A DNA stretch of 64,000 bases from Ptychomitrium polyphyllum (taxonomy: Eukaryota). Position 1 is the first letter of the stretch. Every line of letters starts with the position of its first letter. Location of the stretch: positions 15,376,001 to 15,440,000 of the forward strand of contig OZ316775.1 of the NCBI GenBank assembly GCA_973851085.1, given 5' to 3'. Position numbers and translations under genes: made by a program. The notes beneath the pieces are model-generated. The model did not search any database. It worked only from the letters and a program-made list of their open reading frames with translations, and was not told the origin of the DNA. Of this stretch, positions 15,201 through 64,000 are shown one piece after another.

Positions 15201-15558
15201 CGCCACACACCACAATCCGTTGCCCATCAGGTGACCAGTCCAGATCATCGATGGATCCCGACAAAGCTCGGATCTCAAACCTCAGAGTGCGGTCCTCATT
15301 CCTGGCCCAAACCCTCACAGTCCCCGACACATCGCCCGACGCAATCCATTCCCCGTTCGGCGAAAACCTGGCCACAGTGACGGGATAGCCGTGTTCTCCA
15401 TACACCTCCACCTTCGACGGGTCCTTCAAGCTGCGAATGATCACGGATCTGCCATTGCAGTACACAACCGACCCGGACTTGGGGTCCCCAGCTACCAGAA
15501 TCCCTCTCCCCCGCTCCGTCCCCGGCACGCTCGCATACGTTTCCGCCAATTGTGCCAT
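12226..15558 (-). CDS. AIP1: Actin-interacting protein 1 (WD40 repeat, WDR1 family)
   Basis: [19 protein letters not shown]...[80 protein letters not shown]; multiple WD repeats over several exons. Confidence 0.95.
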
Positions 15559-15802
15559 CAAGTTCAACCCCTCCTGCACACTCCCTGCAACAAACACCTT
15601 GGGGATTCGATCCACGTACTGCTTGAGCTAGGTGGCGCCGGATCGAGCATCCCAAACCCAAACTCATAAGAGAGAATTTTGTGAATGCATTGAGGGAGTG
15701 GCCCAAAGCGCAAATTTTAGAGGTCCTAGCGGAGTTCCCGATTTGGATCCGTCGCCACGTCGAGCCTGACAATGAGGATCTGGATTGGGCGCAGAAAACC
15801 GT

Positions 15803-15811
15803 AAACCCTAA
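15803..15811. promoter_or_regulatory. Telo-box (AAACCCTAA) upstream of AIP1; similar TTAGGGTT(T) at 3283, 31845 and 58223 near other 5' ends
   Basis: Exact motif near gene starts; telo-boxes are known plant promoter/5'-UTR elements of housekeeping genes. Confidence 0.5.
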
Positions 15812-17001
15812 GCCCTAATGGTGCCAATCTTATCACTTGGTGGCATTGCTGGTGAAGATGGGTTATGGGCAGGTCCGTTTCGTGGCACACACGAGCATGC
15901 ACATGCTGAATGATTGATAGATAGATTGGTTGATTGATTTCGTCGCTGCGAAGGCGAGACCTATTTAGCTACTTGCCTCGAGAGGTGAGGCTTCCAGACA
16001 ACGGTATTTGTAGCACGATGAGGCACGTTGTGTCGGAAGAAATCATTAGTTGATTCTGTGGTCGTGTTACTCAGCTACAGTAACCTTAGGTTCAGGTGTA
16101 TGCGTAGTCCGGAAAAGGAGGCGAAATTTTCATTCAAGGTAAACTGTAAGTTGGTTCATGGAGTTTTCTACATAGAACGGTTGTGCAGTGTATTTGCAAG
16201 AATTCGGTGCTGCTTGGGCCATGCTAAGTGATTGTAGGTGGACGTGATTACGTTGATAAAATTTCCTCAGAAAACGAAGTGTGTACGACTAAGCTATGAA
16301 TCCAGTATATTAGTATACTTGCGTGATCTCATCATGGTCATTACAGCAATGCAACAAGAGAAGATTACATACGAACTCTGCAGACACATAATCAGAGGTG
16401 TCCACTTTGATTACATTAGAACATGCTCCTTATCACAGTCCCAAACAGTACCAGCAGCAATCCCTAGCTTCACTAACCAAGTTCGATCCTGCAATAGAGC
16501 TCAAATACTAGAAGAAAACAGTCGAACAACAAATATTGTCTATGATTGCTCAGGCTTCATCATTCACAAATTGAACAAGTGAGTATTCTATCAGCAAGCT
16601 GATGAGAAGGGACACGAAAGAGCACAATGTCAGTGCTCACAATGCCTGGTGCAAGTACTGCTCAGAGTAGGCCTGCAACCAATTTCTTAATGTAACTGCG
16701 AATGAAGGTAAAGGTTTACACAATGTGATTGGGAATAACCGCATAATGTACATATACTGCCCAACCAGGACCTGCCAAAGATCAATCAGGTCCTCTGTTG
16801 GATACTTGGTAGTTTCGTATCATGAAGGCAGGGTTTGGAGTCGACTCGCCTCGGCAATCTCCAACTAACAAACTCACTCAAATTATTAATAACTGCAACT
16901 TTGGACAAAACTTCTGTTCCATGCCCATTAAGGGCCAACTCATATTTGGCAGTATGGTCAATGATAGACAACTAATCTTTGAAATAATTCAAGGCAGGGG
17001 G

Positions 17002-20000
17002 TTAATGTGACCGTCTTGATGAGCCTGGGTTTTCTGATACTACATGAGCGTCATCCTTGGTAGCACACCTGTGAGGTTGACATGACCTCTCAAGTATGGC
17101 ACATAGCTGCTCCTGTGTGTAATGCTCCGTTGGCTCAATCTGCAGACGAACAACCCAAAAGTCAAATTCACCTTCAAATATGGAGATACACCAAAAAAGA
17201 AAGACTACATCAAGATTAAAAACGCAGTCATCCTCGGATTGCTTTGTCTCACCTTCACAATAACAATGTGTAGGACCATGTCTTTGGTAGTGGAGGTATT
17301 TGAGTGCCGAATTTCCATCCGTAGCTCTTGTAATGCCATCATCATTTGAACAAGAGCGTAAGAGTCCTTCAAACAATTGATACGAATCATGGCTTCTTGG
17401 CCAAGAATGTGCACATCAATAGTGGGTTTCGTCCCACTTAATGAGTTTCCAGACATTGAGGTGCTGTTAGCACTCCCTTGTGGCCTTACACTCAACCCGT
17501 CTTTTGCAGGGTTGTTCATTGAACTCCTGGCAATTGAGAGCGATTCTTGCGATTTGTCACTCGAAGCAATGACATGACTTTTGAGGTCCTTGATTTGAAC
17601 TTCTGCCGATTGAAGCTTGCTAGACAGCTCGTTAATGTACGCAATGGCATCCCCTAACAGAGATGCTTTATCCATCTGATAATACCAAACAAAGAGGGGA
17701 AAAAACCAGCCAAACTTTATTAACATATGAAGCCAAACAAGCTAGAAGACAACAGAAATGGAGAAATGATACACGTAAACAAATGGATTTCATTGCGGAG
17801 AACTAAATATACTCCCAACTCGCCAATAATTCGCCTCAGAAGGTGTAAATTGATATAGAAGTAATCAGTCAAAATATACAAAGCTGATCGCTAAAATGAA
17901 TTGCGTTGACGGCCATGAATAGAATTGTATCTATGAAACAATCAATTAGTGACTTGCGTGCAATGCAAGAAGCTAAAGAGCGCTCACCTTGGAAACGTTC
18001 GGCACAACAGCTCGCAAAGCATAAAATCGCTGATTGAGTTTCTCTCTCCTTTGCCTTTCTGCCTGCACATGGCTTAGTGGCTCCTCCCTGTCGTTGGCCG
18101 GCTTCCGACCCCGCTTGCGTGGAGGTTTCGTACCAACATTCAGACTAAACTCCACTGCACTACTCTCTTTGAAAGAGATTTCAGCTTCTGATTCTTGGCA
18201 ATCGTGTTCTGACTGGTCAAAACTTGAACGCCCACTTGTGCTAACTGGAGGCCCTGATATCGTAGTCTGGTTTTGCTGGGAAGGTTTATAAACAGGTTTC
18301 GCTTTCTCAGCCACAGGCTTCGTGGCCTCTGTATTTATCCCTGAAACATGCACCTTCTCTTCTTGCGCTGGAAGTTTTGTTCCCATAGATTGTCTAAAAT
18401 CTGGAGTATTAACCAAGACCTGATTGAATTCCCCTGCAGTAGTCTTTTGAGGGTAGGCATATGAAGAGTGTACCTTGACATGTGGTAGTGATGAAGGTCT
18501 TTGCTCATCAAAAGACAACCTGTCAACACTCTGCGGAATGCTTCGGTGGTTCGCTTCGGATACACTGGTTCTACTTAACAGATTTGATGTAGCAGAGAAA
18601 GGAAGTTTCCCTTCCTGAACAGGTGGTCTCGCGATAGGATGATACATGCGCGATTGCCCTTGATCTTTCTCAACAGTGTCAACTGACACCACATCATTAA
18701 ACTGCATGTCTTCCGATTGTGACCAAAGATAGTCCAAGTTATCAAAACTAGTGCTTGCCATCGAGGACCCAATCTTTTCGACTGAGACATTCCTCCCTCT
18801 GTAATGTGCTTCATTATCTTTACCAAGACCAGAACCTCTACTGGCTACGCTTGGACTGGACGTCAACACACTTGTGGTGGCCAACGACATGACACTTGGA
18901 CTAGGCGGGAAGAAAGTCGCATCACTGTCCATAAGCAAAGATTGAGCCATAACTTGACTTTGCTTTGCTCCCCAAGATGGTTCATCAAAGACCATCTTAA
19001 TATTGTGAACAACTTCCACGTTTTGCCTTATCTGCAACCAAAGCGAATGAGGTGGTATATTAGCAGTTGCCAAAAAAGATTGTGACCATTTTCAGAACTA
19101 CTTCGGAGCTTGACGGAGAACATTCTTGATTTGTGTAAAACTAGGAAAAATCGCAACGCTACGTAGTTACGTCGGCTTCTTTGCCAGCAGCGTAGTGTAG
19201 CCTCTACTCTAATGTACGATAAATAATACTCCAATTTCCAACCATGTGCATTCTGTAGAGCCCAACTCACCATTTCGTAAGAATTAAAATACACCTTCAG
19301 AGCATTGAATAAATGACTATTGTATAGTAAACGTTCAAAAAGCTATGTATGACTTAGATAGCTGCAAATCCATCCACAACCTGGCAGAATAGCTTACAAA
19401 ATATGAATTATTAGGACATATTTAACTAAGACTAGGTTCATCCTTTTAAAGCAAGAATAATCGTAGATTAAGGATCAAACCACTTCCAATAAACTGCATT
19501 GATAACCTCTTAATAGCTAGGGCGCGAGCTCCTTCAACTCACCAGATCTGTTGATCCAAGCTCCACAACGCCAGTCTTCGTTGGAACACAGATGATTGTC
19601 TACAGACACACAATAAAACTACAGATAAGAATCTGAAAAAACAGATCGGACATCATGCAGAAGACATCTGCACTTCGTGTCTTATAGATGAAGCTCGCAA
19701 GAGCATCGATCCGTCTCAGTAGAAGCATGCGAACGTAGATGACTTGCACCATCAACATGAAAAAACTGATACCCAACACATGGATATCATCATATTATAA
19801 ACCTCGGATAATAACGATTGCTTGGGTCCTGACAATACCTGAATGCCGGCCATCTGCATTTGATGAAGCACCAAAATAGATAACAATGCCACCAACCAGA
19901 ATCTAGTCAGTCCCAAGGCTTTAATTTTTCCTTTATCAAATTAAGTGCTTGAAATTGACGGGCTTTCTGGAAGTATATAGTCTCCTATGATCATTGCAAC

Positions 20001-22092
20001 CTAGAAAATCCAAAAAGCTGCAGAAATTATTTACAATGGGCAACAGGGAGAAGAGCAGTACGAAATGACATATAAAGTGAAGACGATAAGCTTAGACACG
20101 CTCACAAATATAAGACTCTGGACAGTCAATTCTGTATGAATTCAAAACTCCGTTTCGAACAAATTAGTTTACTAGCACTCTCTGCAAAAACACAAATCTT
20201 TACGTTTGAATGAAATTTTTAGACGAGGTCAGAGCCCCCACAACAGTTGTAATCAAACGCATGGGAAACATATAAACTCCTTGTGTCTATACAGCGCGTG
20301 GAACATGCACTTCCTGTTTAAAATACGGGAAATGGGAACTCCGACCTTATTACTGTCCATGTAGCCAGAAACAACTTAACAAAAAATCTTAGTTACGCCT
20401 AATTTCCAACGGACAATCACAACTCCACAATCGCCATGCTACATCAGAAAATAGGATAGTAAAGTTGTACCTTGGCCAAATGAGATCGTGTACAGACATT
20501 ATTGGGGGCCTTGTTTGCCTCAATCAGCCACACAGGACTATCAGTTGCCAATGCTCGGCCAGGAATCCTGCATCGAAAACGCTTTACCGGATTAAGAGAG
20601 GTGAAACTAGCACACATACATATAATCGACGACTTCAGTGCCGTGACAATACCCAGGATCTAGTAAAGAAGCCCGAAAAGGCGAAGCAAGTTAACAAGAG
20701 AAGAAAGAAGTTTGAGTCTTACCCCACCCCATGGGCAAATGAGTGTGACATAGAGACGAGGTAGAACCACTCCGTATCTGTTACATAATCACTGATGTCC
20801 TCTTCAGAATTGCTCACAAGAGACTGCAACTCTCTTAACACTTTCCGCCTCAGCTGCTGGTCCTCTTCACTGCCCCCCTGCTCTATACGCTTCATGTCAG
20901 GAACCTCATTCTCTCTTGGACCCTTGAAATACCCGTCGCCCCAACCCAAAATCCTGGAACAGACAACACTGGAACGTTAACATTCTTGCCAAGGAAATGA
21001 GAGAGGTTACGAATGCCAAAATAGTCATTCAAGAAAGTTCAATCCCCGGCCCATAAAAGACCAAAGTTCCTAAAATTCACGTTTTTGCTTCAAAATCAGT
21101 AATCCATAGTTGCAAATGACCACACCAACAGATACTCCGCTGGCAACAACACGCATCCGTTACAAGTTACATATGTTAGACCGGATCTATTCGGATTATA
21201 TCATTATGGTGGGTAAAAGGTTAGGAATGGTCGATGCTTGGTCTGACGATTGTAACTTCACGACTTTATAGAATCACTTTGTCCAGAAGGGGGTAGGGGT
21301 CTGAACAGAAAGGAAAGGCCAACGCAAAGCACCCTTCCTGACGTCATGGATGCCGTTATTGGAAGTTCCAAGTAAAGTACTGAAGAAGGGCTCTAATGGG
21401 CCGCTTGAGAAGTGTAGTCCATAAAAGAGGCAAACACACTCCCACAGACGTTTAGAGTTGGACAGTCCCCAAAACTGAAGAGGCTATAATGGACTAGAGA
21501 AGATATTAAAACAGCATTAACAGTGTCGGAATCTGGAGTAATAGCAACTCCCTCAGCGATGACACTCAAGGTCATATGAAAGTTGCTGAAGCTCGCACAA
21601 CGAACATGCTACCGTTGAAAAGTATAAGAAAAACTTGCACCCCTATCTCCACAACCGGAGCCCAGGATACACCAAATACTACACTACTCCCGTATGTGCG
21701 CATGTTCGGCCTTCCCGGTATAAAAAAATCAATTCCTGCCTTGAAAATTTTTCTCAGAGCTCAAAATTGCAGAAGCTCTGCAACTTGCGCACACAACCAA
21801 ACAATAATACTCATATTGAGAGGACGAAGGAGGTGACTTACAGTTCTCCACTAGGCGACGTCGAGAGCTGCCAGAAGATCCCATACGTCCAATTCTCCGC
21901 CGACTCCTCCACCAGCGAGTGCAACCTCCTCAACAGCACAGTCTCACTCAACTCCAGCCCCTTCTCGCCTGTGCTCGCCAGATCATCCGGCGCCTCATAG
22001 CTAGGGATCCCGTAAGCAGGCCCCATGAACGCCTCGATCATAGCCGAGTCCCCGGCGTCCCAGAAGCTCGGCACCGCCGTCTCCATCATCAT
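17002..22092 (-). CDS. MYC2-type bHLH transcription factor, copy B, 8 exons
   Basis: Exons 22092-21842, 20953-20723, 20567-20471, 19853-19839, 19599-19543, 19031-17988, 17675-17253 and 17139-17002, with the same exon phases as copy A. bHLH reads [48 protein letters not shown]. Confidence 0.93.
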
Positions 22093-26995: not shown

Positions 26996-29637
26996 ATGGC
27001 GCTCAAGTTTTTGAACAAGAAGGGATGGCATACGGGTAGTTTGCGGAACATTGAGACGGTGTGGAAGGCGGAGCAGAAGCATGAGGGGGAGCAGAAGAAG
27101 CTCGAGGAGCTTCGGAAGCAGATTCAGGATGAGCGGGAGAAGTCGGAATTTCGTCTCATGCAAGAGCAGGCCGGACTAGTTCCGTAAGTGCTTCTCTTGA
27201 CCTGGATTCAGGTTTTCGTTCGTGTTGTTCATGCAGGTGTTCTTTCGGTCGTAATGGAAGTGCCGATTCATTGTGTTAGGGTTTGCTATGTGCGTTCCTC
27301 GTTGTTGGTTCACGCAGAGAGATTTGGTAAGGACGATGAGAAAGGAGATTTCACTTGCGAGAAACTCTTTTATATGTAGCTCTGGTCTAGGGTTTCCGTG
27401 TTCAATTTCGGTGCAGGATGTGTTGCTCGCTGTATTGTGGTATTGTGTAGTTAATAATATGGCGTACGACGAAGACAAATGCTTATTGTCTTCTTCCGTT
27501 TTACCTCTTGTGTACGAGAGTCGGAGTGAACTGTGGAGGGCATTCATGTTGAATCGGTGTGTTCTTGTGATGCAGGAAGCAGGAGCGGCTAGAGTTTCTG
27601 TACGATTCTGGTCTTCAGGTTGGGAAGGTTGCCCAAGCAGATGAATATCTTCTAGGGAAACCTGTGGAAGAGGCTGTGCAGCCTGAGAATGATGTTGGAC
27701 AGGTAAGAACCTCTCATAATCTCGAGGGCTTTACAATGGACAAAAGACCTAGATGTGTATAGAATTACCATTAATTTTTCCTGTACAGAAGAGGCCATTT
27801 TTTTGTGTGTGGCGCTCTTTTATTCTATGTCATATTCATGGTGGTCAACTTAAACCCGTGCAGGTAGCAGCTAAACCTGGTGCATTGTTTGTCGAGGAGA
27901 AACCTGCCTCGGCAAACGATTCCTGGAGGAAGCTGCACTCAGATCCCCTTTTTTTGATCAGACAACAAGAGCAAGCAGCGATTGCAAAGATAAAGAGCAA
28001 CCCAGTGAAGATGGCGGAAATAAAAAAAGCTGTAAGTATGTTCTCTTACCTCTTGGTTAGGTGATCGAATACATAAGAACACGTGTTAGGGTAAACGTTG
28101 CGGTTCATCGATGTCATCAAATCTGGTTGTGCCATTTCTACAGGTGGAGATTACGAAGAAGCTGAAGGAGGAAAAGAAAAATAAGCGGAAAGAGGCTAAA
28201 CGTGAACGCAGAGAAAAGAAGAAACAGAAAAAACTGCGGTTAAGCAGCAGTGAAGATTCCTCAGATTCAGACAATCCTCGAAAGAATATGAAGCATGGGC
28301 ATGAGTCGGATGCGGATGGTGATGCTGGTTATAAAGATAGGAGGACGCAAGTTTTATCTCGCAATCTATCCAGGAGCCCATCTAGGAGTCCGACCAGGAG
28401 TCCGACCAGAAGTCCTGTTCGAAAGGATCGTCGACAAAGCCCCAGGAAATTGAGGAGTCTGAGCAGAAGTCCTGCTCGGAGGAGGGATTATGGCCAGAGC
28501 AGATTAAGGAGAGATGATTTGGATTCTAGGGGTCCTTTGAAGAGTGAAGGAAGGCACCGGGAACATGATTTCAGTGATCAAAGGCTGAAAGAATCTAATC
28601 ATCAAGATTTTAGACCTCGTGATACTAGAGATCAGGAAAGAAGACCCAAGTCCTCGAACAATGGTTCTGCGGATGAAGATAAGAGGAAGCAAGTTTTGTC
28701 TCGCAATCTATCTCGAAGTCCATCCAGGAGTCCGACTAGAAGTCCTGTTCGAAAGGATCGTCGACAAAGCCCCAGGAAATTGAGGAGTCTGAGCAGAAGT
28801 CCTGCTCGGAGGAGGGATTATGGCCAGAGTAGATCAAGGAGAGATGATTTGGATTCTAGGGGTCCTTTGAAGGGTGAAGGTAGACTTCGGGAACATGATT
28901 TTAGTGATCAAAGGTCGAAAGAGTCTGATCATCAAGATTATGGAAAGAGAAAGAGAGCTCCATCAAGGAGTCTATCTAGAAGTCCTGTTCGGAGGAGCAG
29001 AAGTCCAGCTCAGCTGAGGGATTATGGTCAGAGTAGATCAAGGAGAGATGACTTGGATTTTAGGGGTGCTTTTAAGGGTGAAGGAAGGTACCGGGAACAT
29101 GATTTTAGCGATCAAAGGCTGAAAGAATCTAATCATCAAGATTTCAGATCTCGTGGTACCAGAGAACAGGAAAGAAAACTTAGGTACTCGAGCTATGGTT
29201 CTGATGACTTAGTACGCAATGATACGGCTGTGAGGGAGAAGAAGCTGGGTGCTGAACATGAGGGAGTTGGAAAAAAGGACACGAATGGTACTACTCTTGA
29301 TGTCCCTGCCAGGCCAACGAACAAAGGAAGACCTCCCAAGCCTGGGCAGCTGTCAGATGCCGAAAAGACTGTACGGTTAGCTGAGATGCAAGCTAATGCT
29401 GATGTTCATGAGGAGCAGAGGTGGCAACGTTTAAAACGTGCCGCTGATGCAGATGCTATGGAAGTAAAGCGATCCGAAAAAGACAAGTCAAACGAAGAAT
29501 TTCTAGCTGATACTCAGAAAAGCATCTTTGGATCAGAGAGGGCTAGTGCCTCCACTATTGAAAAAAGTGTAAAACGGCGGGCACATTTTATCGAGAGGTC
29601 AAGTGCAGATAACGAAAAAAATGCTTTCAGGCGGTGA
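26996..29637 (+). CDS. CWC25: Pre-mRNA-splicing factor CWC25-like (Cir_N + CWC25 domain, RS-rich tail)
   Basis: MALKFLNKKGWHTGSLRNIETVWKAEQ, ERLEFLYDSG, NDSWRKLHSDPLFLIRQQEQ. Exons 26996-27183, 27576-27702, 27864-28031 and 28144-29637. Confidence 0.9.
28348..29200 (+). repeat. Internal tandem duplication in CWC25 last exon (~340-nt unit, two long copies plus a partial third)
   Basis: QVLSRNLSRSPSRSP...RDYGQSR.RRDDLDSRGPLK.EGR.REHDFSDQR.KES.HQD recurs; the near-identical nucleotide blocks start ~28348 and ~28690, and the RDYGQS...HQD block occurs three times. Confidence 0.9.
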
Positions 29638-31899: not shown

Positions 31900-34460
31900 A
31901 TGTATAACGGGATTGGATTATCGACGCCGCGCGGATCTGGTACGAATGGTTATATTCAGACGAATAAGTTCTTCGTGAAGTCGCGGCCGGTGCGGTCGGA
32001 GGCGAAGGAGTTTCAGACCGGCCAGGGCGCAGGCGGCGTGCTGCGGAAGGCGAACAAGGATATTCTGGAACACGATCGCAAGAGGCGCATCGAGCTCAAG
32101 CTGATCGAGCTGGAGGATCAGCTGGTGGATCAGGGCTATCCGGACGAGGAGGTGTTGGAGCGTGTGGAGGCTTTGCGGAAGGGTTTGGAGGCTGCGGGGG
32201 CAGAGGATGGCGATGATGCGTCTGCAGGGGTCGAAAACCGGTATGTCGTTTTTTGTGTTCTTGACATGTCTGTAGGTTCGTTTTGGAAGTTGAGAGAAAG
32301 TGAAACACAAATATCTTCAGGAGGCACTGCTTGTAACGAATGGGAGATGACATATTTGCTATTCTGAGGTTAAATAAGTAGTATTGCTTGGGATTGCTTG
32401 GAGACTGAATCGGTCGATTTGTTGTGTCAGGTCATTATGAGCATGAATTAGTATGCTAATGCGTATGTCTCAGGATGCTGTCTGAGCTACATAAGCATAT
32501 CAGGTTCGGAAGTATTTTGGTGCTCTAGGGTTTCGGAAAATTAAGGGCCTTGCTCACTCTGATTTGCGTGTGATTAAACTCTGAGCAACAGCCAAGGCCG
32601 TGTTTCAGGAGAATAGGAACGTAAAATGTATACGGCTTGAGAATTAAATGTATGTATCATAGCATTATGGTGCATCCTCGGTTGTGTAGTGGGTAGATAA
32701 ACTTACTAATTCGCGTTTTTTAGCTTCTTTTGTGTCATGCGGTGATGTAGTGGTTGGGATGTTTTCTTATTTTTTGTCCTCGGGAGAGTGTAAGCGAAGC
32801 TAGTTGGACTGTTACGGTATTCTCAGAGCGCATTTATAATGGCTGAGATTGTGAATTCTGATACGGTCGGTGTGGGGTTCTTTGTTTGTGTTGTTGTTGT
32901 TGTTGTAGTTATTTTTGTAGTCACTGTTGTGGCTCCTGTTGTCCATTGCTACAACAGAGGCAACAACAACAGCGACATAAACAAAGATCCCCTGACAGTG
33001 GAGAGAAACGGAGGAAATTTATATGTACAAGAGATTGTATAATGTACATATATACCGTATGATATATGAAGACCGTATATATAGTTCACATAGGTGTGTT
33101 AGCTGTGCATTTGATTGAAGCTTCGTGGCGTATCATAATGGTGCATCCAGGATGTGGTTCGGTGGTTGCTGGATCAAAGGGTATGTTCGCATTTTCTCAA
33201 GGGTCTATTATGAGCATGAATTAGCATGCTTATGCACATATCACATTATGCCTACATAGGGCATATTAGGGACTCCTGCGCCAAAAGAGAAACGTGTACT
33301 GACATGTTATTTGTACTGTGTGTTCTTGCAGAGTGAACTCAACACAAAGCCACCACATTGCTGCGCAGAAAGAAAAGCAATTGGAGACAATGAGAGATGC
33401 TCTTGGGTTGAAAGAGGTCAAGGAGGGTGAAGCTTTCGATCGGGATTTGCAAGAGCAGAAAAAGCAGGAGCGAATAATGGCAAGGGAAGAGAAAGACCGG
33501 GAAAGACGTGAGAAGCAGGCTGCTATTGAGGAGGAAGAAAAGCGGCAGAAGAAAGAGCAGCGCCGTGAGGAGAAGCTCAGGCAACGGGAACAAGAGGAGG
33601 AAGAGCATAGACAGAGAAAACGTGATCGCAAGGCTCGAAGAGAGCAGGAAGAAGAAGAGCGACAACAGAAGAAAAAAGAAGCAAGGGAGAAGAGAGAGCT
33701 TGAAGACGAGGAGCGGCATCAGAAGAGGAAAGAGTCGAGGGAGGATAGGGATCCGGAGGACGAGGAACGATATCAAAGGAAGAAAGAGTCGAGGGAGAAG
33801 AGGGAGCCAGATGACGAGGAGCGACATCAGAAGAGGAAAGAGTCTAGGGAGGACAAGGCTCCGGAGGATGAGGAGCGATATCAAAGGAAGAAAGAGTCGA
33901 GGGAGAAGAGGGAGCCAGATGACGAGGAGCGACATCAGAAGAGGAAAGAGTCTAGGGAGGACAAGGCTCCGGAGGATGAGGAGCGATATCAAAGGAAGAA
34001 AGAGTCTAGGGAGGACAAGGCTCCGGAGGATGAGGAGCGATATCAAAGGAAGAAAGAGTCGAGGGAGAAGAGGGAGCCAGATGACGAGGAGCGACATCAG
34101 AAGAGGAGGGAAACGAGAGAACCGGAAGATGACTACCGACCTCTGAAGAGGAGGGAGACGAGGGACCTGGAAGATGAGGAACGTCCTCAGAAGAGGAGGG
34201 AGACGAGGGACCTGGAAGACGAGGAACGACCTCAGAAGAGGAGGGAGACGAGGGACTTGGAAGATGAGGAACGTCCTCAGAAGAGGAGGGAGACGAGGGA
34301 CCTGGAAGACGAGGAACGACCTCAGAAGAGGAGGGAGACGAGGGACTTGGAAGATGAGGAACGTCCTCAGAAGAGGAGGGAGAAGAGGGACCTGGAAGAC
34401 GAGGAACGACATCAGAAGAAGAAAGAATCGAGGGAGAAGAGGGAGAAGAGGGAGCACTAG
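31900..34460 (+). CDS. CWC21: CWC21/SRRM2-like splicing factor (cwf21 domain) with long charged repeat tail, 2 exons
   Basis: MYNGIGLSTPRGSGTNGYIQTN...ILEHDRKRRIELKL. Exons 31900-32240 and 33332-34460 (CG|A = Arg, GT-AG). Confidence 0.9.
32874..32992 (+). ncRNA. Intronic long foldback (pre-miRNA-like or splicing-regulatory hairpin), candidate
   Basis: 32874-32905 pairs with 32961-32992 (32 positions, one mismatch, three G:U). An inner stem CTGTTGTGGC/GCTACAACAG closes a 14-nt loop. Confidence 0.45.
33705..34430 (+). repeat. Coding minisatellite in CWC21: 54-nt (18-aa) units followed by 45-nt (15-aa) units
   Basis: DEERHQKRKESREDKAPE / DEERYQRKKESREKREPD alternate, then EDEERPQKRRETRDL repeats about 5-6 times. 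Confidence 0.95.
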
Positions 34461-55300: not shown

Positions 55301-58300
55301 TTATATATTTAGTTTTATAACATCTACTTTAAATATTAAAATTAGTAAAAATTGGATTATATGGTTTTATTTATTGTACGTGAAGAAGAATGTTCTAGAT
55401 GTAAATTATAGAATTTATGTTTTTAATGAGATTTACTCATAAAATACAAAGTTTGAAGGTTTGGTGTTCATTATGATAAAAATTGTGAATGTTGAAGTAG
55501 AGGGAATTAATAGATCAAACAAAAATATTTAATTGAAATGTACTCTTAAGCTAGAAGGAAAAAGATATGAGTACAATACAAGAGTTTTAATCTATTATAT
55601 ATATAAGTAAACCTTTGTCTTTATTAAACAAGCGTATACACATCTTAACAATAAAAATGGAGATTCAATTTAAATACAAATTTTTTAATAAGTCATACTA
55701 TCATATAGCAAATGAATACAACAATATTCAACATCATTTAAACACTCGAATCAATCTTCTTGGAACAACAAAGCTTAATCAAAATCAATGACTATAGAAA
55801 TTTTATAAAAATATATATTTGTTTTAAAACTTAATTATTTATAATAACAAAAATCAACAAAAATTAAAGCAACAATTTACTTTTTGTATTTTAAGTGTGA
55901 TAAAGCAAAATTAAGAAAAAAAAAACTTTGTAATAGGATGCAATAGATTTCAAATAAACCTCTTATAAGGTTTAATTTTGGAAGGCTAATCAAAATTGCA
56001 AATTAAAAAAATATCTATTATATTGGCATCAAGTATTATATTGGTACTAAATTGTAGAACTCCATGTAATGAAGATCTACACTTATTTCCATGCACATCC
56101 ATTACACATAATTAAAGCTATTATATAAACAAGGTATTTTAAGGCCTTGCAACAATTGCTATTTTTTTACACAATTATATAGTATAATTGCAATTTAATT
56201 TGTATAGTCTACAGGCTAAAACAAAATTAAATAGAAATGAAGCTAAGAAGATTTTCATTACAATATTTTATTGTACCATGAGCAATTATTCTTGGAATGC
56301 CTTCTCATCATTTGTACATGAGAGCCCTATTACGTTTAGAACTAAGAGGCTTTGAAATAATTATTACATTATTTTTAAATTGAAGTAATTATTCAAATAA
56401 TTGAAGAGGCATAAAGGTTATCAAAGGTTTTATTAAAAACACATTCTTTCAATTGCTACACAACATCATTAATTGCAATAACGAATTCTTGAATAAGACT
56501 AGATTTTCCAATCAATTGCAAAAAATGGATCAAATTTTTATACAACTACAATAATATTTATGTAAGGCTATGTAGTTTTATAAACAATTAAAATTGCCCA
56601 TTTGATGTGTAAATTTCAAGTCTTAAGCATATCAATGCTTATATGTTATGATTGTGATTCATTTACATTACAAAATCCACTTTATTAAAATAGTAGATGG
56701 ATAGGTAATGATATGCAACTTTATAATTTAAAATATAAACTCAATCTCTTAAACAACTCTTAAAAAATGACATCAATATATGTGTTTTTTAATGTTCTTT
56801 ATGCAATATATTATTAAAAAAAACACTTACATTTTTACACGAGTTTGCCAATATTTAACAATTAAAAAAAAAACAAGGCATTAAAATTCAAAAAAATTAT
56901 ACAAAACTTTCAATAATTATATATAGATATATAAATTTTAATTAAAAATTATATAAATAAATATAATGGTAGGATAATTTTATCAAATATTTCCAAGGAC
57001 AAATAACTTATTGTTTATATTTGTTTCTTTAAAAAAAAATTGACTTATTAATAACCAAGCTACGAATAGAAGAGATTCAAGTATTGTTTTAATATAGTAC
57101 TTTTTATTCACTTTGAAAATTAAAGAGCCATTTCATATATGCTACATTTTTTATCTTGTCATAATTTATAAACTTTATTTACATAGTTATTAAAAAAACT
57201 CATAACTTATCTATACAAATTGCAATAATTAAACAATATTTTAGTTCATTTGAATTTCCTTGGAATATTTTTCCTATAAGCTTAAAAACTCATTTTTTTA
57301 TAACAAATATACTTAAATGATTTTTAATTTTTTTTTTGAAACATTTAGAATTAATGGCCAATAATTGCTACACTACTATAGTTTAACCTCAATAATACAA
57401 CACTTGATAGTATGACAATTTAGATTTTGTAGCACATCGATTTCCTACCAAATGTTCTAGTTTAAAGTTCTTCCTACAATATAACAACAACACACAACAA
57501 TACAATATTTAAATATCTATTTTGTCATTTGTAGAAGTAACATAGGTATGTTCATTCTAATAATAATATAATATTGGATAAAAGAAGACAACATATCATT
57601 TATGCACAAATGGAACCACAAAATGGAACCTCAAAATGTGCTAATGGAACCCCTTGTGGGAACTTACGGGAACTTACGGGAACCTGAGAGAACTCAATGC
57701 GAATTAACTAAATTCAGTAACACTACGACATTTGTGTTCGCAGGCGTGGTATATTGAAGAGAGGGAACCGTCCACACGGCGGAATGCCAAAGAAGGTGGA
57801 GCGTGGTGTCAGCCACGCAGGGGGAAAGCGTTGGCACCAATGATGGGGTTTGGTGCTAAAAGGGCGCGGGGCGGAGTTGAGGCGGAGCATCAAGGCTGGC
57901 AACGCATAATTCAAATTTAAAATTTCACATGCGTCTAGGTTCTCGTCCCTTTCTCCCGCTCCTTTGCATAATCCCATGCAGGCCGAGGCCCTTCATTGCC
58001 ATTCTTCTTCGAAACCCTCGACCATCCTGCCATCTTTGCGCCAGGCAGCCCCGCACGATCTGCGATCCTACCTCGCCACACTCTGGTAAGTCACGCCATG
58101 TCGTGCCGTGCCATGTCTGCTGTACTGCATTCGCTCTGTGCTTCTGCATCTTCTATCGTCGCTCTCCTAGGGTCTGGGAGCTCATTCACTCTTATAGATC
58201 TTGTTGGCGGTTTCATTGAGGCTTAGGGTTTCGGATGTTGTAGCGAGTTGACGTCAGAGGGGATTAATGCTTTTGGTTGTAGAGGTTGTTTGAGGTGAGG

Positions 58301-58462
58301 ATGGAGGATTGGTTGATGGATGTGTGGTTTGGTTTTACTGTTGATTATGAGCTCTCAGTAGCGGTTCTTGTGAGTAGGAGCTGGAGGACTTAGTGGCGAG
58401 GTTTGAAGATCGAGGGGGGTTGATGGTTGGGACTTGGATGTCTCGTGTTTGAGTGGTTTCAA

Positions 58463-59050
58463 ATGCATCCCCCTCTTACGCTGCACAAGCATCCCGCCTG
58501 TGCCGAGGTACTTTCTGCCATTGAGTTGGGGTTTATTGTCTTTTTATACCCCTTGGAATTGTGTAGTGCATCGCGGAGGTGGGGATCCATCGGACAGACA
58601 TATTGAGTGGATGCCGGTTGGATTGTGGTAGGTGATCGTGAATTTCAAGAAATGTCATGAGGATCACCCTGTGCAGAAGTTCTTTGGAGCTTGCAACGAC
58701 CTGAAAATCCAGTTGGACAAGTGTTTCCGAGAGGAGGTCTGAGATCTTGTGCCGCTCTCTTTTTGTATGCACTGGTGTTGCAAATTGCAGTGAGATTGGA
58801 TTGATCGTGTTTTTGAATGTTGGAGATCTCTGCGGCCAGAGTGGCTGAGAATGTTGGCCGCAGCGGTTTATTTGAGGTTGAGGGCATGAGAACTCATACT
58901 CTGTGTTGTGTCATCTGTCCTGGTTGTGATGTGCAGAAGCAAGTGAAGCGGAAGGCGAATTTTGAGACAAGCAAGCAGCTCAAGGAGAAACTCAGAGCTA
59001 GCAAAGCTGCAAAGTCCCCTTCGGAGTTCACGATGCCAGCCTCAGCATAA
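58463..59050 (+). CDS. CMC2: Twin CX9C mitochondrial IMS protein, COX assembly factor CMC2-like (Cmc1 family), copy a, 87 aa
   Basis: Exons 58463-58507, 58632-58736 and 58937-59050 (45/105/114 nt, GT-AG, phase 0) give MHPPLTLHKHPACAEVIVNFKKCHEDHPVQKFFGACNDLKIQLDKCFREEKQVKRKANFETSKQLKEKLRASKAAKSPSEFTMPASA, with two C-X9-C motifs. Confidence 0.9.
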
Positions 59051-59140
59051 TGGAGCTGGTTTCTGGTGTTATGTGGTGATCTGCAATTGTGTCATCAGGG
59101 GTGTCATGCGGCAGGGAATTTGTTCAATCTGTAGTTGGAC

Positions 59141-60011
59141 ATGGAGTCTGTGACATCGGATGCAAACGATTTCACTGGGGAGAAGCAGCCTGAGAATAAA
59201 GCACCTGAGGCAGCCACACCATCAATCGTGTGGGAGAAACGGCCTGTCAGTAGGAAACCTCGCATTATCTTGGCAGCCAGTGGCAGTGTAGCTGCCATAA
59301 AATTCGGGATCCTTGCAGATAGCTTATCAGACTGGGCAGAAGTAAGAGCAGTAGCTACAAAACCTTCGTTGCATTTTATTGACAGGAAGGGCTTGCCCGC
59401 TAGTGTAAAGCTGTACACAGATGAAGATGAATGGTCAAGCTGGAGCAGAATTGGAGACAACGTCCTTCATATCGAGCTAAGGAAGTGGGCTGATGCCATG
59501 CTTATTGCACCTCTCTCTGCAAACACGCTTGCCAAGGTAAGAAACCTTGGTCACCTCAACCTGTATATCCCATTTCTGCTTTTTCCAATCTGTATTTGCA
59601 GGAATGTGTCTATTCTGTAATGCGTTCTAGGGATCGCAACTTTTCTCCATATGCCACATTACGATAAGAGAAGTAGTATGCCTACCTAACTCCAACGATA
59701 CACAGGTTGCGGGAGGTTTATGTGACAATCTTCTCACATGCATCGTACGAGCTTGGGATTTCTCAAAGCCCATGTTTGTTGCCCCTGCTATGAACACGTT
59801 CATGTGGACCAGCCCTTTTACCTTGCGACATCTAACGGCACTCGAGGATCTTGGTGTTACTGTCATCTCACCTATTTCTAAGAGGCTGGCATGTGGAGAT
59901 ACAGGGAATGGTGCTATGGCTGAGCCCGCGTCTATTGATTCTGCTATGCGGTTGTCAGTACTATCTGACCCTATTATCCAGTCGCTTCCTGCACCACCTC
60001 GCACCATCTGA
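59141..60011 (+). CDS. HAL3: Phosphopantothenoylcysteine decarboxylase (HAL3/CoaC flavoprotein)
   Basis: Exons 59141-59536 and 59706-60011: RIILAASGSVAAIK, VLHIELRKWAD, IAPLSANTLAK|VAGGLCDNLLTC, FVAPAMNTFMW, KRLACGDTGNGAMAEP. Confidence 0.95.
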
Positions 60012-61840
60012 GGATTCATCTTTTCCGGTCTAGATTTTCCAAATATGTTTCAGCTGTGATTATAATCGATGCATATCTGTTGGTAGTTTGAATTCCGGAC
60101 AGGCTGCAGTGGCCAATTTCGGGTTTGGCTTGGTTGCCAGATCATGGACTTCGTGTAGGATACAGCGGGCTAGGTTGAGTGTCGTGTTTGCAGAACATTG
60201 ATTTATTATACTTTTTTGCATATTTCATGCAGCAGCTTTCAGGTTTGGAAACCCTTCATAGCCAGAAGTTTATAATCACTGTCTTCACCACATGGTCTGT
60301 ACGGTTTTTTAAATATGAGTTTGATTAAATATTTTTTAAATATGAAGTTTTTTCAAATGCATAGGAACCAGCCACTCGCTGCAGTATCGACAGCAAAGAC
60401 TAGTGACTTGTAAGAAGTAAAGGAATAAATTGGCACATTTCCAAATCATTATAAAGTGGTACCTGGAGAAATATTTTGAAATTCTCTGTTTGTGAAATAA
60501 CTTGGAACATAGAATTAGAAATTTCGCCTGAATTTGATAGTTTGATGGAATGGATTAGAAATGAGTTTTTTTTTATAAAGTGATTTTTTGAAATGTTTGC
60601 ACTGCATTGTTTTGGTCGATATTGTTATGAGGGGGTAAATTTCATTTTTTTATAAATGATGCTTGAAATGAAGGTCGTCATATATTTTCTTAATACGTTC
60701 TATTTTGTATCAAATCTACAATAAGTAGAATTCTCCTATGCTACATATACAATGTAAATAAGTCCTTTATAATTAACCATTTATATCCTAAAAACTTAAA
60801 AATAGTCTACTTTTATGATTTTGTACTTTTTAATTCCGGAATTAAAAAGTACAAAATTAAAGTCAATTCCATGTAATATATGTGGAAAACTGAATTGATA
60901 ATCTATTTATATTTTGTTACAATTTACTTTTAAAGTTTTGACATGTTCAATATTTAAAGAAAAGGAGTATGAAAGATTAATGTACTCTAATTGATACATT
61001 TAAATTTTTTAGAAGAAAACTCCTTGCTTATCAAATGACAATGAAAAAAGAAACAAACTATGATTTAATACTTTTGTAAAAGTTAGGTTTTTGGGATATA
61101 TTTACGTACTTCACTTTGTATAGTTGCACTACACTTTTAGAATTAAACATTACGAAATATTCATAAACATTCCTAAAACACTTCAAGATCATAAAAAATG
61201 AATACATTTCTTGAATAGAAAACGTCAATAAAAATTTCATAAACATGTAGAAAGTATTACTTTTGCAATACCAGTATGCAAGTACAGAATGATTAGACCA
61301 CCTCAAGAATAAAGCAGCATCGAGTTCATTAGGCCTGAAACCACAGAGCATGAGAGGTCACCAAAATGAAGTCCATGGGGGAACAGAGAATTGCAAATCA
61401 CTTGAGGGCCTTTGTAATCAGAAGTGTGTTAGTTCTAACAGCATCAAGCCATCGTAAAAGGCTAGTCGAATTCATGGTCACATATAAAATTTCTCCACCA
61501 ATACCCGAGATTTACAGACATGCAGTTCCCTTTTGCAAACTGCAACTCCTGCATGGATATTCGAAAGGTGGTCAACACCATTTTCATAAACACGTTCAAG
61601 ATGAGAATGACCAGTTAGTGTCCCAGGTCGTCAAATTGAAGCCTTGAATACCAAGGAGAGGGGAAAAAATGGCAGGATAATCCAGTATCCATTACAGAAT
61701 CTGCAGCTGTACAAATTAGGACCCTTTGCTTGTGCAGACTTCAGCGCACACGTTCTTTGCTGAGCGCTGGGACTATCCATAATCCACGTTGTACAAAGTT
61801 GAATCCTAAACGTATGACCCTGGATGGTTGAATGGTGGTC

Positions 61841-63271
61841 CTACATATCCGCTACAGACCAGAGGTAAGCCTCCAGATCAGTTGCTTGTTTCTCAGCCTT
61901 GGCTTTGAACATTTGACTTTCAAATCCAGTGCTCCGGTCGACACCATCCCAGTGCCGCCCAGGTTTGATTCCATACCGATTCATCGGAGCTCCAACACCT
62001 CGTTTCAGCCAACTGTGTGCAGGGATATCCTGAGGTATTATAAAGCCCGATTCCTTCATTTCCTCTGATGCTCCTAAATCCACCAACTCAGCTGCCGGAT
62101 CCTTCCGTTTGACAAGATGTGCCATAGGATCACCAAATCGTATCCGCTCTTTAAACATCTTGTCAAGTTCAGGATCATCGCGAGACCGTGCAAATGGCTT
62201 AGCTTTCTCAGCTTCAAACTCTGCAAGCTTTTCATCAACTTCTCGTTTTTGAGCTAACCCTTTCCCCCATTCGAGGGGTTTAACTTCAGGTTTACCTGCA
62301 CCCTGTTGCTGCCTCATTAACTCCTCTAAACCCTCCAATCGTTTTCCGCGTTTATCACGGTAGACTGTTTCTGCTGCCCGACCTCCGCCATCCATCTCTT
62401 TCAACCTTCTGGCGTCCTCCTGCTTCTTCTTCCTAAGCTCAGCTGCACGCTCTGCTTGGTTTTTAATAAGCCCTGCTTGCCTGCCATCGGTCATCCTCAC
62501 AGGTTTCCGTCTAGACGGTGAAGAGTCCATGGAATCTTTTGACTGTGGTGGAGGCATTCTCCGTGGAGGAGAAACATCAGGGGTGCCTGCAGTCCGGTGT
62601 CTCCTCCTGGGAGGAGAGATGTCCTGCGATTCAGGTATCCTTCTCGAAGAGGCATCGAGGGTGCCTGTAGTCCGATTCCTTCTCCTGGGAGGAGAGATGT
62701 CCTCTGACGGAGGTACCCTTCGCGGAGGAGAGGCACTGGGTGAGCCTGCAGTCCGGTTCCTTCTCCTGGGAGGAGAGATGTCCTCTGACGGAGGTACCCT
62801 TCGCGGAGGAGAGGCACTGGGTGAGCCTGCAGTCCGGTTCCTCTTCCTAGGCGGGGAGATATCCTGAGACGTACGCTCTCCTCTCAGAGGAGAAGCATCA
62901 GCGGAGCCTGCACGAACTGTAGCATTAGTCTGCACTTTCCGTTGAACATCCACTCCCGGCACCGTACTCCATCCACTCCCGTCATCTCCAATAGACATAT
63001 ATGGTCGGTGTTGCTTAATCCTGTCCATTTGATGCATACGCTTCACTTCCACGTCTTCAATCACTTGAGGAGCGTCAACTCCCTCCACTTCTGGCTCGTC
63101 CGAATCCTCGTCAATAATTTTCTGCCAGGCTGCATCATTGTCTACTATGATCAGCCCTGAAGGCACCTTTGCTGCTGCTGCTTTCCGCTTCTTCTTCATC
63201 TTCTTCGGTTGCTTTACCTCGTCCCCAGCTGACTGGTACTTTTTCAGATAGTTTTTCAGTGAAGTCGCCAT
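61841..63271 (-). CDS. BUD13: BUD13/CWC26 RES-complex splicing factor, intronless, 476 aa
   Basis: MATSLKNYLKKY, DxSPPRR repeats, AETVYRDKRGK, EWGKGLAQ, PFARSRDDPELD, RFGDPMA, NRYGIKPGRHWDGVDRSTGFE, AYLWSVADM. Confidence 0.95.
   Translation of the reverse strand: MATSLKNYLKKYQSAGDEVKQPKKMKKKRKAAAAKVPSGLIIVDNDAAWQKIIDEDSDEPEVEGVDAPQVIEDVEVKRMHQMDRIKQHRPYMSIGDDGSGWSTVPGVDVQRKVQTNATVRAGSADASPLRGERTSQDISPPRKRNRTAGSPSASPPRRVPPSEDISPPRRRNRTAGSPSASPPRRVPPSEDISPPRRRNRTTGTLDASSRRIPESQDISPPRRRHRTAGTPDVSPPRRMPPPQSKDSMDSSPSRRKPVRMTDGRQAGLIKNQAERAAELRKKKQEDARRLKEMDGGGRAAETVYRDKRGKRLEGLEELMRQQQGAGKPEVKPLEWGKGLAQKREVDEKLAEFEAEKAKPFARSRDDPELDKMFKERIRFGDPMAHLVKRKDPAAELVDLGASEEMKESGFIIPQDIPAHSWLKRGVGAPMNRYGIKPGRHWDGVDRSTGFESQMFKAKAEKQATDLEAYLWSVADM
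62550..62872 (-). repeat. 81-nt (27-aa) tandem repeat in BUD13, about 4 units
   Basis: DISPPRRRNRTAGSPSASPPRRVPPSE; GGAGAGATGTCC recurs at 62691 and 62772. Confidence 0.9.
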
Positions 63272-63350
63272 GACTACTATTTGCAACTAACGGATAAAAC
63301 AAGTCTCAAGTTCCCAAGCACAGGACCACAGATACCAGAGCGCAGCTCCG

Positions 63351-63933
63351 TTATGCTGAAGCAGGCTTGTTGAACTCTGAAGCAGACTTTGCAGCTTTGC
63401 TAGCTCTGAGTTTCTCCTTGAACTGCTTGCTTGTCTCAAAATTCGCCTTCCGCTTCACTTGTTTCTGAAGATGAAAGAGTGCAAACTATGAGCTCTCACA
63501 AAACCCAAAATTCACCGTTTGGGCCAACAATTCTAATCACTTTGACAGTAAAGGTCTCAATCATTCACAAGCATGATTCATCTAGTTCCACTCCAATTCC
63601 AAACCCCTAAAAAGTGCATACAAAAAGAGCGCGGCACACGATCAGACCTCCTCTCGGAAACAATTGTCCAACTGGATTTTCAGGTCGTTGCAAGCTCCAA
63701 AGAACTTCTGCACAGGGTGATCCTCATGACATTTCTTGAAATTCACGATCACCTGCCACAATCCAACCGGCATCCACTCAACAACCGCCAGAGACCACAA
63801 AAACTCTCTATCCGACGCACGCACAACTCCGCAATCAAGAGCACCACAACCTCTGAGAAGAAAACCCTCACTCAGTAGCAGAGCGTACCTCGGCACAGGC
63901 GGGATGCTTGTGCAGCGTCAGAGGAGGATGCAT
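63351..63933 (-). CDS. CMC2: Twin CX9C CMC2-like protein, copy b, 87 aa
   Basis: Exons 63933-63889, 63752-63648 and 63464-63351 (45/105/114 nt). It differs from copy a at 5 residues (K/N, L/F, P/A, T/N, M/K) plus synonymous changes. Confidence 0.9.
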
Positions 63934-64000
63934 TTGTACCACTCAATAACCAAACCCCCGACTCGTGAAACTTCACCACCAACTGTACTCCAGCTCCTAC

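What the first reader, a model, noticed from the sequence alone, without database searches (positions are those of the whole stretch)
58463..63933. Duplicated CMC2-like micro-gene sits immediately upstream of two unrelated genes (PPCDC and BUD13): candidate pair of bicistronic units
Seen: two intact 87-aa twin-CX9C ORFs with identical exon sizes in inverted orientation. Copy a stops at 59050, 90 nt before the PPCDC ATG (59141). Copy b stops at 63351, 79 nt before the BUD13 ATG (63271). This leaves essentially no room for a 3' UTR, poly(A) site and new promoter. Both CMC2 starts are in weak context (caaATGc) and both downstream starts in strong context (gacATGg, gtcATGg). The copy-b spacer has no ATG. 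Known precedent: CX9C/CHCH mini-ORFs occur upstream of unrelated ORFs (human CMC4-MTCP1; a plant conserved-peptide uORF upstream of Mic1 homologues), and Arabidopsis CDC26-TTM3 is bicistronic. Inference: a promoter+CMC2 cassette was duplicated and now drives two different second cistrons by leaky scanning or reinitiation. That would link a COX assembly factor to CoA synthesis and to splicing. Caveat: exon 2 has two out-of-frame ATGs (AAATGTCATGAG), and copy a has more in its spacer.
Basis: partly seen in the sequence, partly recalled or inferred. Interest (0 to 1): 0.9.

Follow-up and report, generated by a model that had tools for sequence, protein, structure and literature searches.

The report
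Moss two-gene transcript gains new partner
In this moss, two intact copies of a tiny gene for a predicted mitochondrial protein (CMC2) end 90 and 79 bases before two unrelated genes; spliced assemblies from three other mosses hold CMC2 and the first partner (a coenzyme A enzyme) together, so this is likely an old two-protein messenger RNA whose duplicate likely captured a second partner, a splicing factor.

Summary
Observation confirmed: two intact 87-aa twin-CX9C CMC2 genes, inverted, end 90 nt before PPCDC and 79 nt before BUD13. The window is a Ceratodon-like moss.

PPCDC is the ancestral partner. All 5 moss loci that reach past the CMC2 stop carry PPCDC 75-287 nt downstream; 0 of 30 non-moss loci do. 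Three of the five are spliced, cDNA-like contigs holding both ORFs. Sphagnum accessions are adjacent, and a liverwort (Riccia) gene model fuses the two. A fern keeps them unlinked.

The CMC2 start has a pyrimidine at -3 in 7 of 7 moss loci and a purine in 33 of 33 others, which fits leaky scanning. But 5-9 AUGs precede PPCDC, so reinitiation or extra isoforms are probably needed.

CMC2-BUD13 is derived: the duplicate ends about 28 nt past the stop, and the pair has consecutive locus tags in Ceratodon. No RNA evidence exists for this arm. Physcomitrium's annotated CMC2 is unlinked to either gene.

Short-read contigs do not prove single molecules or translation of the second ORF. No functional link between COX, CoA and splicing is shown. 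No report found in 10 literature searches. New variant of known plant bicistrons.

The parts
57900..58085 (+). Probable start region and non-coding first exon of unit a (inferred)
   Evidence: A 12-nt exact match (57907-57918) and weak colinear similarity to the leader of spliced contig L001; GTAAGT donor at 58086 seen in the sequence. TSS not mapped.
58086..58400 (+). Probable 5'UTR intron; acceptor at 58393 or 58400 (inferred)
   Evidence: Donor in the sequence; an AG at 58392-58393 has a counterpart in copy b; the L001 leader aligns from the AG at 58399-58400.
58463..59050 (+). CMC2 copy a, 3 exons (58463-58507, 58632-58736, 58937-59050), 87 aa, twin CX9C, start context caaATGc
   Evidence: dN/dS 0.02-0.05 against L001, L002, L010
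59051..59140 (+). 90-nt spacer a; two AUGs inside and one overlapping the CMC2 stop; no poly(A)-like hexamer of the 7 tested; no stable fold
   Evidence: z 0.83; colinear with the unspliced 75-nt spacer of L001
59098..59115 (+). 18-nt element identical in the L001 spacer, containing an out-of-frame AUG whose frame overlaps the PPCDC start by 13 nt here; role unknown
   Evidence: 0 of 1000 shuffles reach the score, while dS between the two species is about 1.1; found in 1 of 42 loci
59141..60011 (+). PPCDC (HAL3-like flavoprotein), exons 59141-59536 and 59706-60011, 233 aa; second cistron of unit a
   Evidence: exon 1 is 94% identical to Ceratodon KC19_1G046200
61841..63271 (-). BUD13, intronless, 476 aa; putative second cistron of unit b
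   Evidence: 80% identical to Ceratodon KC19_1G045700
63272..63350 (-). 79-nt spacer b, AUG-free; first about 27 nt homologous to spacer a, the rest unrelated (duplication breakpoint near 63324)
   Evidence: first 28 nt, 0 of 1000 shuffles reach the score; remainder, 171 of 1000
63351..63933 (-). CMC2 copy b, 3 exons (63933-63889, 63752-63648, 63464-63351), 87 aa, start context caaATGc
   Evidence: 13 of 264 coding bases differ from copy a
63934..64000 (-). Leader of copy b, homologous to the leader of copy a up to the window end; promoter outside the window
   Evidence: 53 of 63 aligned bases match

Best explanation
CMC2 and PPCDC lie 75-287 nt apart across mosses and share spliced contigs, so they likely form an ancient bryophyte bicistronic mRNA, and an inverted duplicate of the CMC2 cistron likely captured BUD13 as a second downstream partner. 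Mechanism (inferred): one promoter upstream of CMC2 makes one mRNA that ends after the second ORF. Some scanning ribosomes start at the weak CMC2 AUG and make the 87-aa protein. Others pass it and reach the strong second AUG, either directly or after translating the 2-15-codon out-of-frame mini-ORFs inside CMC2 and reinitiating. In unit b the path is nearly clear. In unit a the extra AUGs, one in a conserved 18-nt element, would keep PPCDC output low. Origin (inferred): in a Ceratodon-related lineage, a segment from the CMC2 leader to about 28 nt past the stop was copied, inverted, to within about 50 nt of the BUD13 start, which would leave BUD13 dependent on the copied unit. The pairing is most simply promoter sharing between housekeeping genes, not pathway coupling. 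Odds by step: CMC2-PPCDC on one mRNA about 0.85; PPCDC translated from it about 0.7; BUD13 arm also bicistronic about 0.55-0.6.
For: (1) Spliced contigs L001, L002 and L006 each hold CMC2 plus complete PPCDC, spacers 75, 287 and 107 nt. L006 differs from genomic L010 by clean loss of CMC2 intron 2 and the PPCDC intron. (2) Of 42 loci, 35 reach the CMC2 stop: 5 of 5 moss loci have PPCDC next, 0 of 30 others have PPCDC or BUD13. (3) Each of 5 Sphagnum CMC2 accessions has a PPCDC accession 1-2 numbers away. The Riccia fluitans model R1flu_002825 joins Cmc1 and Flavoprotein domains. (4) Six further CMC2/PPCDC record pairs have equal or near-equal contig lengths (2537, 1623, 1637, 4535, 1025, and 1492 = L001), which suggests shared contigs (inference). 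(5) The -3 base is a pyrimidine in 7 of 7 moss loci and both window copies, a purine in 33 of 33 other loci. The residue before the start Met in N-extended models implies the same: Leu in Riccia; purine-start codons in 27 of the 37 scorable representatives among 149 examined. (6) The second AUG has purine at -3 and G at +4 in 5 of 5 units checked. (7) Both ORFs are under strong purifying selection. (8) Ceratodon CMC2 and BUD13 have consecutive locus tags in two assemblies.
Against: Short-read contigs can merge overlapping same-strand transcripts, so single molecules are not shown. No RNA of this organism or of any CMC2-BUD13 unit was seen. AUGs are not purged: 9, 9, 8 and 5 precede PPCDC in the window, L001, L002 and L010, and the avoidable CAT-GA AUG in exon 2 is kept in 5 of 5 moss sequences. 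In Arabidopsis the second ORF of 7 of 8 tested readthrough RNAs was rarely translated (PMC9768141). The -3 contrast is one clade against the rest with redundant loci (5 versus 14 distinct contexts); 7 of the 37 scorable representatives also imply a pyrimidine; 2 of 5 other long ORFs checked in this window have a pyrimidine at -3. In Physcomitrium the annotated CMC2, PPCDC and BUD13 lie on contigs of 22.4, 17.2 and 25.6 Mb, so they are unlinked as annotated. In Ceratodon no CMC2 model next to PPCDC turned up; PPCDC is 4-5 models beyond BUD13.
Confidence: 0.68

Rival explanations
1. Two overlapping monocistronic genes. PPCDC and BUD13 have their own start sites inside the CMC2 gene or spacer; the CMC2 mRNA ends inside, or reads through, the second gene without translating it. 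The 18-nt element would be a core-promoter motif.
For: Many AUGs before PPCDC; the conserved element sits 25-43 nt before the PPCDC ATG; assemblers merge overlapping RNAs; readthrough RNAs in Arabidopsis are mostly NMD targets with untranslated second ORFs.
Against: No poly(A)-like hexamer in 4 of 5 spacers. Spacers of 75-107 nt persist across saturated synonymous divergence. The weak CMC2 start is confined to linked lineages among the loci. A CMC2-only mRNA running over the PPCDC intron should be an NMD target (established knowledge). Spacer b lacks the element.
Confidence: 0.17
2. One promoter, alternative isoforms. Retention of CMC2 intron 1, or splicing that skips the CMC2 start, gives a PPCDC- or BUD13-producing isoform, while the fully spliced isoform mainly makes CMC2.
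For: L006 retains CMC2 intron 1 while its other two introns are spliced. Five Sphagnum-type records begin inside intron 1 and continue through spliced exons 2-3 (P0016, P0017, P0020-P0022). The last 29 nt of intron 1 are 97% identical between the copies against 69% for the rest of it. An AG lies 7 nt before the PPCDC ATG.
Against: L001 and L002 are fully spliced and still carry both complete ORFs with the spacer intact. Retaining intron 1 adds sequence and AUGs rather than clearing the path. Partial splicing is common in assembled contigs.
Confidence: 0.1
3. Only unit a is a real bicistron. Copy b is an ordinary inverted tandem duplicate that happens to abut BUD13, which keeps a separate start site.
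For: No transcript evidence for unit b; the spacing in Ceratodon is unknown (only locus tags are adjacent); other inverted duplicates occur in this window. This rival overlaps with the first for the BUD13 arm.
Against: Only about 50 nt of non-duplicated sequence precede the BUD13 ATG; spacer b is AUG-free; adjacency is shared with Ceratodon despite 20% BUD13 protein divergence.
Confidence: 0.3

Closest known systems
Arabidopsis CDC26-TTM3 bicistron (seen as passages in the reviews PMC7943633 and PMC9768141; the original paper was not read)
   Same: A small conserved protein that is monocistronic in most eukaryotes is encoded upstream of an unrelated metabolic enzyme in plants.
   Different: Different genes; the CMC2-PPCDC link was found only in mosses and one liverwort; the first cistron here has two introns and exists twice with two partners; no experimental proof here.
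Conserved-peptide uORF homology group 8 (CHCH/twin-CX9C uORF upstream of Mic1-like ORFs; PMC2075485, passages read)
   Same: A twin-CX9C mini-ORF upstream of unrelated main ORFs, with different partners in plants, nematodes and arthropods and free-standing elsewhere; explained there by transcriptional fusion.
   Different: Group 8 is a 61-62 aa PF06747 protein; this is an 87-aa PF08583 (CMC2) protein. There the partners differ between lineages; here two partners coexist 4 kb apart in one genome.
Green-algal bicistronic loci translated by leaky scanning (PMC7896298, PMC11892635; passages read)
   Same: Short first ORF, short spacer, weak first and strong second start context, spacer frame not conserved.
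   Different: Algal loci are depleted of AUGs before ORF2; the PPCDC arm is not. CMC, PPCDC and BUD13 terms gave no hit in 7 supplement files of PMC7896298.
Vertebrate STREMI-SLC35A4 'bipartite origin, bicistronic transcription' (PMC13303939; passages and section 13 read)
   Same: A mitochondrial microprotein upstream of an unrelated, intronless ORF; no direct functional interdependence.
   Different: There the second CDS is proposed to have retroposed into the first gene; here the breakpoint suggests the first cistron was copied to the second gene.

Membership tests
CMC2 (Cmc1-like twin-CX9C COX assembly factor) | PF08583 match above cut-off | tested here: met
   32 and 31.5 bits against a cut-off of 22 on exon 2 of each copy; the close Physcomitrium relative is named COX assembly mitochondrial protein 2 homolog
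CMC2 (Cmc1-like twin-CX9C COX assembly factor) | Two CX9C motifs intact | tested here: met
   C13/C23 and C36/C46 in both copies
CMC2 (Cmc1-like twin-CX9C COX assembly factor) | Intermembrane-space location and role in complex IV assembly | not testable with these tools
   Inferred from family; plant CMC2 is listed as a putative homologue in PMC5877523
Eukaryotic bicistronic mRNA | One mature transcript spans both ORFs | tested here: inconclusive
   Three spliced contigs of relatives span CMC2 and PPCDC, but they are assemblies; nothing for BUD13 or for this species
Eukaryotic bicistronic mRNA | No separate start site or poly(A) site between the ORFs | not testable with these tools
   Needs CAGE and 3'-end data; only a hexamer scan was done
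Eukaryotic bicistronic mRNA | Both proteins are translated from that transcript | not testable with these tools
   Purifying selection on both ORFs shows function, not the template
Leaky-scanning bicistron (green-algal type) | Weak ORF1 and strong ORF2 start context | tested here: met
   5 of 5 units; -3 pyrimidine in 7 of 7 moss loci versus 0 of 33 others
Leaky-scanning bicistron (green-algal type) | AUG depletion before ORF2 | tested here: not met
   5-9 AUGs before PPCDC in 4 of 4 units; unit b has 3 in the part inside the window
Conserved-peptide uORF | Upstream peptide under purifying selection and linked to the same main ORF across species | tested here: met
   dN/dS 0.02-0.06 among moss CMC2s; linked to PPCDC in 5 of 5 informative moss loci and in Riccia
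Conserved-peptide uORF | Peptide-dependent control of the main ORF | not testable with these tools
   The peptide is equally conserved where it stands alone, so its conservation does not imply cis control
uORF homology group 8 (CHCH-Mic1) | 61-62 aa PF06747 peptide upstream of a Mic1-like ORF | tested here: not met
   87 aa; PF08583 found, PF06747 not reported; partners are PPCDC and BUD13

The most novel reading that the evidence does not exclude
An intron-bearing CMC2 cistron has headed an obligate bicistronic mRNA with PPCDC since the common ancestor of mosses and liverworts, and acts as a portable promoter-plus-leaky-first-cistron module. Its duplicate took over expression of the splicing factor BUD13, and in some relatives the original copy is decaying, so a partner swap is caught mid-course inside one 5.5-kb locus.
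Probability: 0.4. Interest if true: 0.82.

Novelty: new variant of a known kind. Interest (0 to 1): 0.68.

Why it matters
Validated nuclear bicistrons in land plants are few. This one appears to be old, bryophyte-specific and unreported in the library searched. It also offers a natural experiment on how such units arise and change partner: one near-identical first cistron, two second cistrons, one spacer loaded with AUGs and one free of them. That allows a direct test of leaky scanning against reinitiation in transformable mosses and liverworts. It also warns annotators: these loci get split, fused (Riccia) or may lose the small ORF.

Tried and rejected
No whole genome is held, so copy number, the promoter of copy b and synteny could not be read. 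No RNA holder was listed for the window; this is no evidence either way. Whether this genome has other PPCDC or BUD13 copies remains open. A profile search of 50% representatives (best 150 of 759) gave no further PPCDC or BUD13 fusion among the 14 longest or most extended models scanned; four had unrelated partners (Kelch, PI4K, GRAS, oxidoreductase), so a fused model shows adjacency only. Spacer folding: no structure beyond shuffles in 4 of 4 (z 0.36-0.98), so no support for an IRES-like fold. Stop read-through or a real fusion protein: rejected because spacer length modulo 3 is 0, 1, 0, 2, 2. An intron in spacer a: not supported, the spliced L001 spacer is colinear. Processed retrocopies as the source of L001, L002, L006: unlikely for three divergent lineages, and L006 keeps one intron. 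BUD13 as a fresh retrocopy: considered; not supported, since full-length BUD13 calls on longer unannotated contigs suggest, by inference, that an intronless BUD13 is common. Assembly artefact: rejected. Earlier findings of this scan: none by sequence, words or place. PMC2817420 was checked for inverted tandem duplicates in moss and gave nothing relevant.
Full report
Observation. Pfam assigns Cmc1 to both exon 2s, Flavoprotein to PPCDC exon 1 and Bud13 to the minus-strand ORF. Copy a stops 90 nt before the PPCDC ATG and copy b 79 nt before the BUD13 ATG. DNA contigs of run X1 cross both junctions, so the layout is not an assembly error. The organism is a moss near Ceratodon: BUD13 is 80% and PPCDC exon 1 94% identical to the Ceratodon proteins. 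No whole genome and no RNA run were available.

Which partner is ancestral. A scan of metagenome contigs with a bryophyte CMC2 alignment gave 42 loci. Thirty-five reach the CMC2 stop. All 5 moss loci among them have PPCDC as the next ORF, 75-287 nt downstream; none of the other 30 has PPCDC or BUD13, and 28 of those have at least 500 nt of downstream sequence. Many of the 30 are redundant copies from a few seed plants. L010 encodes a CMC2 identical to the named Sphagnum protein P0006. Each of five Sphagnum CMC2 accessions has a PPCDC accession one or two numbers away. A Riccia fluitans gene model joins CMC2 to PPCDC; such fusions show adjacency only, but the neighbour is the same one. In the fern Ceratopteris, CMC2 is on chromosome 30 and the PPCDC genes seen are on 2, 33 and 39. 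The link therefore likely dates to the moss-liverwort ancestor (over 400 million years, recalled). Against universality: the annotated Physcomitrium CMC2, PPCDC and BUD13 lie on three different chromosomes; an unannotated upstream copy there was not testable.

Transcript evidence. L001 (1491 nt) and L002 (2040 nt) carry an intronless CMC2 ORF, a spacer and a PPCDC ORF without its intron. L006 (2118 nt) matches genomic L010 except for clean removal of CMC2 intron 2 and the PPCDC intron, and keeps intron 1. Synonymous sites between these lineages are near saturation, so they are three independent cases. Six CMC2/PPCDC record pairs share contig lengths, one of them L001 itself; this is inference. 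These are assemblies, probably of short reads, and could merge overlapping RNAs. No comparable evidence was found for BUD13.

The BUD13 arm. Similarity between the copies runs from the window end through the leader and CMC2 to about 28 nt past the stop; the remaining 50 nt or so before BUD13 are unrelated to spacer a. Ceratodon CMC2 and BUD13 have consecutive locus tags in two assemblies (045600/045700 and 043200/043300), with PPCDC four to five models further on. The order agrees with this window read backwards, so the duplication likely predates the split from Ceratodon. The copies differ at only 13 of 264 coding bases (dS 0.07-0.16) while most intron sequence is 68-69% identical, which suggests conversion or strong constraint. 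Whether the promoter was copied cannot be seen, as it lies beyond base 64000.

Mechanism. The base at -3 of the CMC2 start is a pyrimidine in 7 of 7 moss loci and both window copies and a purine in 33 of 33 other loci; two loci had no readable start. The residue before the Met in extended protein models points the same way. This is a single-clade contrast, and weak contexts occur elsewhere in this window, so it is supportive, not decisive. The second AUG is in strong context in 5 of 5 units. Weak-then-strong is the signature reported for algal bicistrons, together with AUG depletion (PMC11892635). Depletion is not met for PPCDC: 9, 9, 8 and 5 AUGs precede it; most open frames of 2-21 codons, and in the window and L010 one overlaps the PPCDC start by 13 nt. 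One of these lies in an 18-nt element identical between the window and L001 and absent from the other 41 loci. Unit b has only the CMC2 AUG and two internal ones. I therefore commit to leaky scanning past the CMC2 start helped by reinitiation after the mini-ORFs, with PPCDC held at a low rate. Read-through and IRES-like folds found no support. The rivals are an internal promoter with overlapping transcripts and isoform switching from one promoter.

Function. Nothing ties COX assembly to CoA synthesis or splicing. A change of partner, possible decay of the PPCDC-linked copy in a relative (P0007, inferred) and unlinked genes in vascular plants fit promoter sharing among housekeeping genes better. 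The same lack of interdependence is reported for STREMI-SLC35A4 (PMC13303939).

Comparison with what is known. It works like CDC26-TTM3, like the twin-CX9C group 8 uORF and like algal bicistrons. It is not a group 8 member. Ten full-text searches showed no listing that describes CMC2-PPCDC or CMC2-BUD13; I saw listings and abstract starts only, and searches listed fewer papers than matched (30 of 452 and 30 of 538 for the two widest). Read as passages: PMC7896298 (plus a term search of 7 supplement files, no hit), PMC2075485, PMC11892635, bioRxiv 10.1101/213736, PMC5877523, PMC9768141, PMC7943633, PMC2817420; PMC13303939 as passages and section 13. Subscription papers, preprint supplements (such as the Physcomitrium sORF lists) and uORF catalogues were not seen and may list this pair.

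Verdict. A real, conserved feature. The CMC2-PPCDC bicistron is likely and appears bryophyte-specific; the CMC2-BUD13 unit is a plausible derived capture that lacks RNA evidence. New variant of a known kind; interest 0.68.

Noticed in passing
P0297, P0170, P0296 (Marchantia Mp6g03380): One locus id covers a 226-aa PPCDC and a separate 161-aa BSD2-like protein, and an older model fuses them. This may be a further read-through or multi-ORF unit downstream of PPCDC.
   Followed up: partly
The PPCDC-linked copy may be decaying in a close relative; the pairing is inferred from lengths only.
   Followed up: partly
window 58603-58771 and 63613-63781: The intron ends flanking exon 2 are 94-97% identical between the copies, against 68-69% for the rest of the introns. 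This suggests a gene-conversion tract or conserved splicing elements; the 3' end of intron 1 has no pyrimidine tract.
   Followed up: partly
window 63773-63648 (-): In copy b an ATG inside intron 1 is in frame with exon 2; in copy a a TAG closes the same frame.
   Followed up: no
window 58937-59050: Copy a has Leu at residue 65 where copy b and all 5 aligned relatives have Phe, a slight hint of relaxed selection on copy a.
   Followed up: no
window 6072-22090: A second inverted duplication: two bHLH-like genes (9117 + and 18995 -) face each other around a WD40-like gene, with further inverted matches at 6072-6323/21836-22090 and 7632-7859/20720-20956. Gene labels are recalled, not tested.
   Followed up: no
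window 28111-29637 and 31900-34460: Two repeat-rich ORFs that look like CWC25- and CWC21-type splicing factors lie in the same window as BUD13. Labels are recalled, not tested.
   Followed up: no
window 60818-60857: A perfect 40-nt palindrome in the AT-rich gap between PPCDC and BUD13.
   Followed up: no
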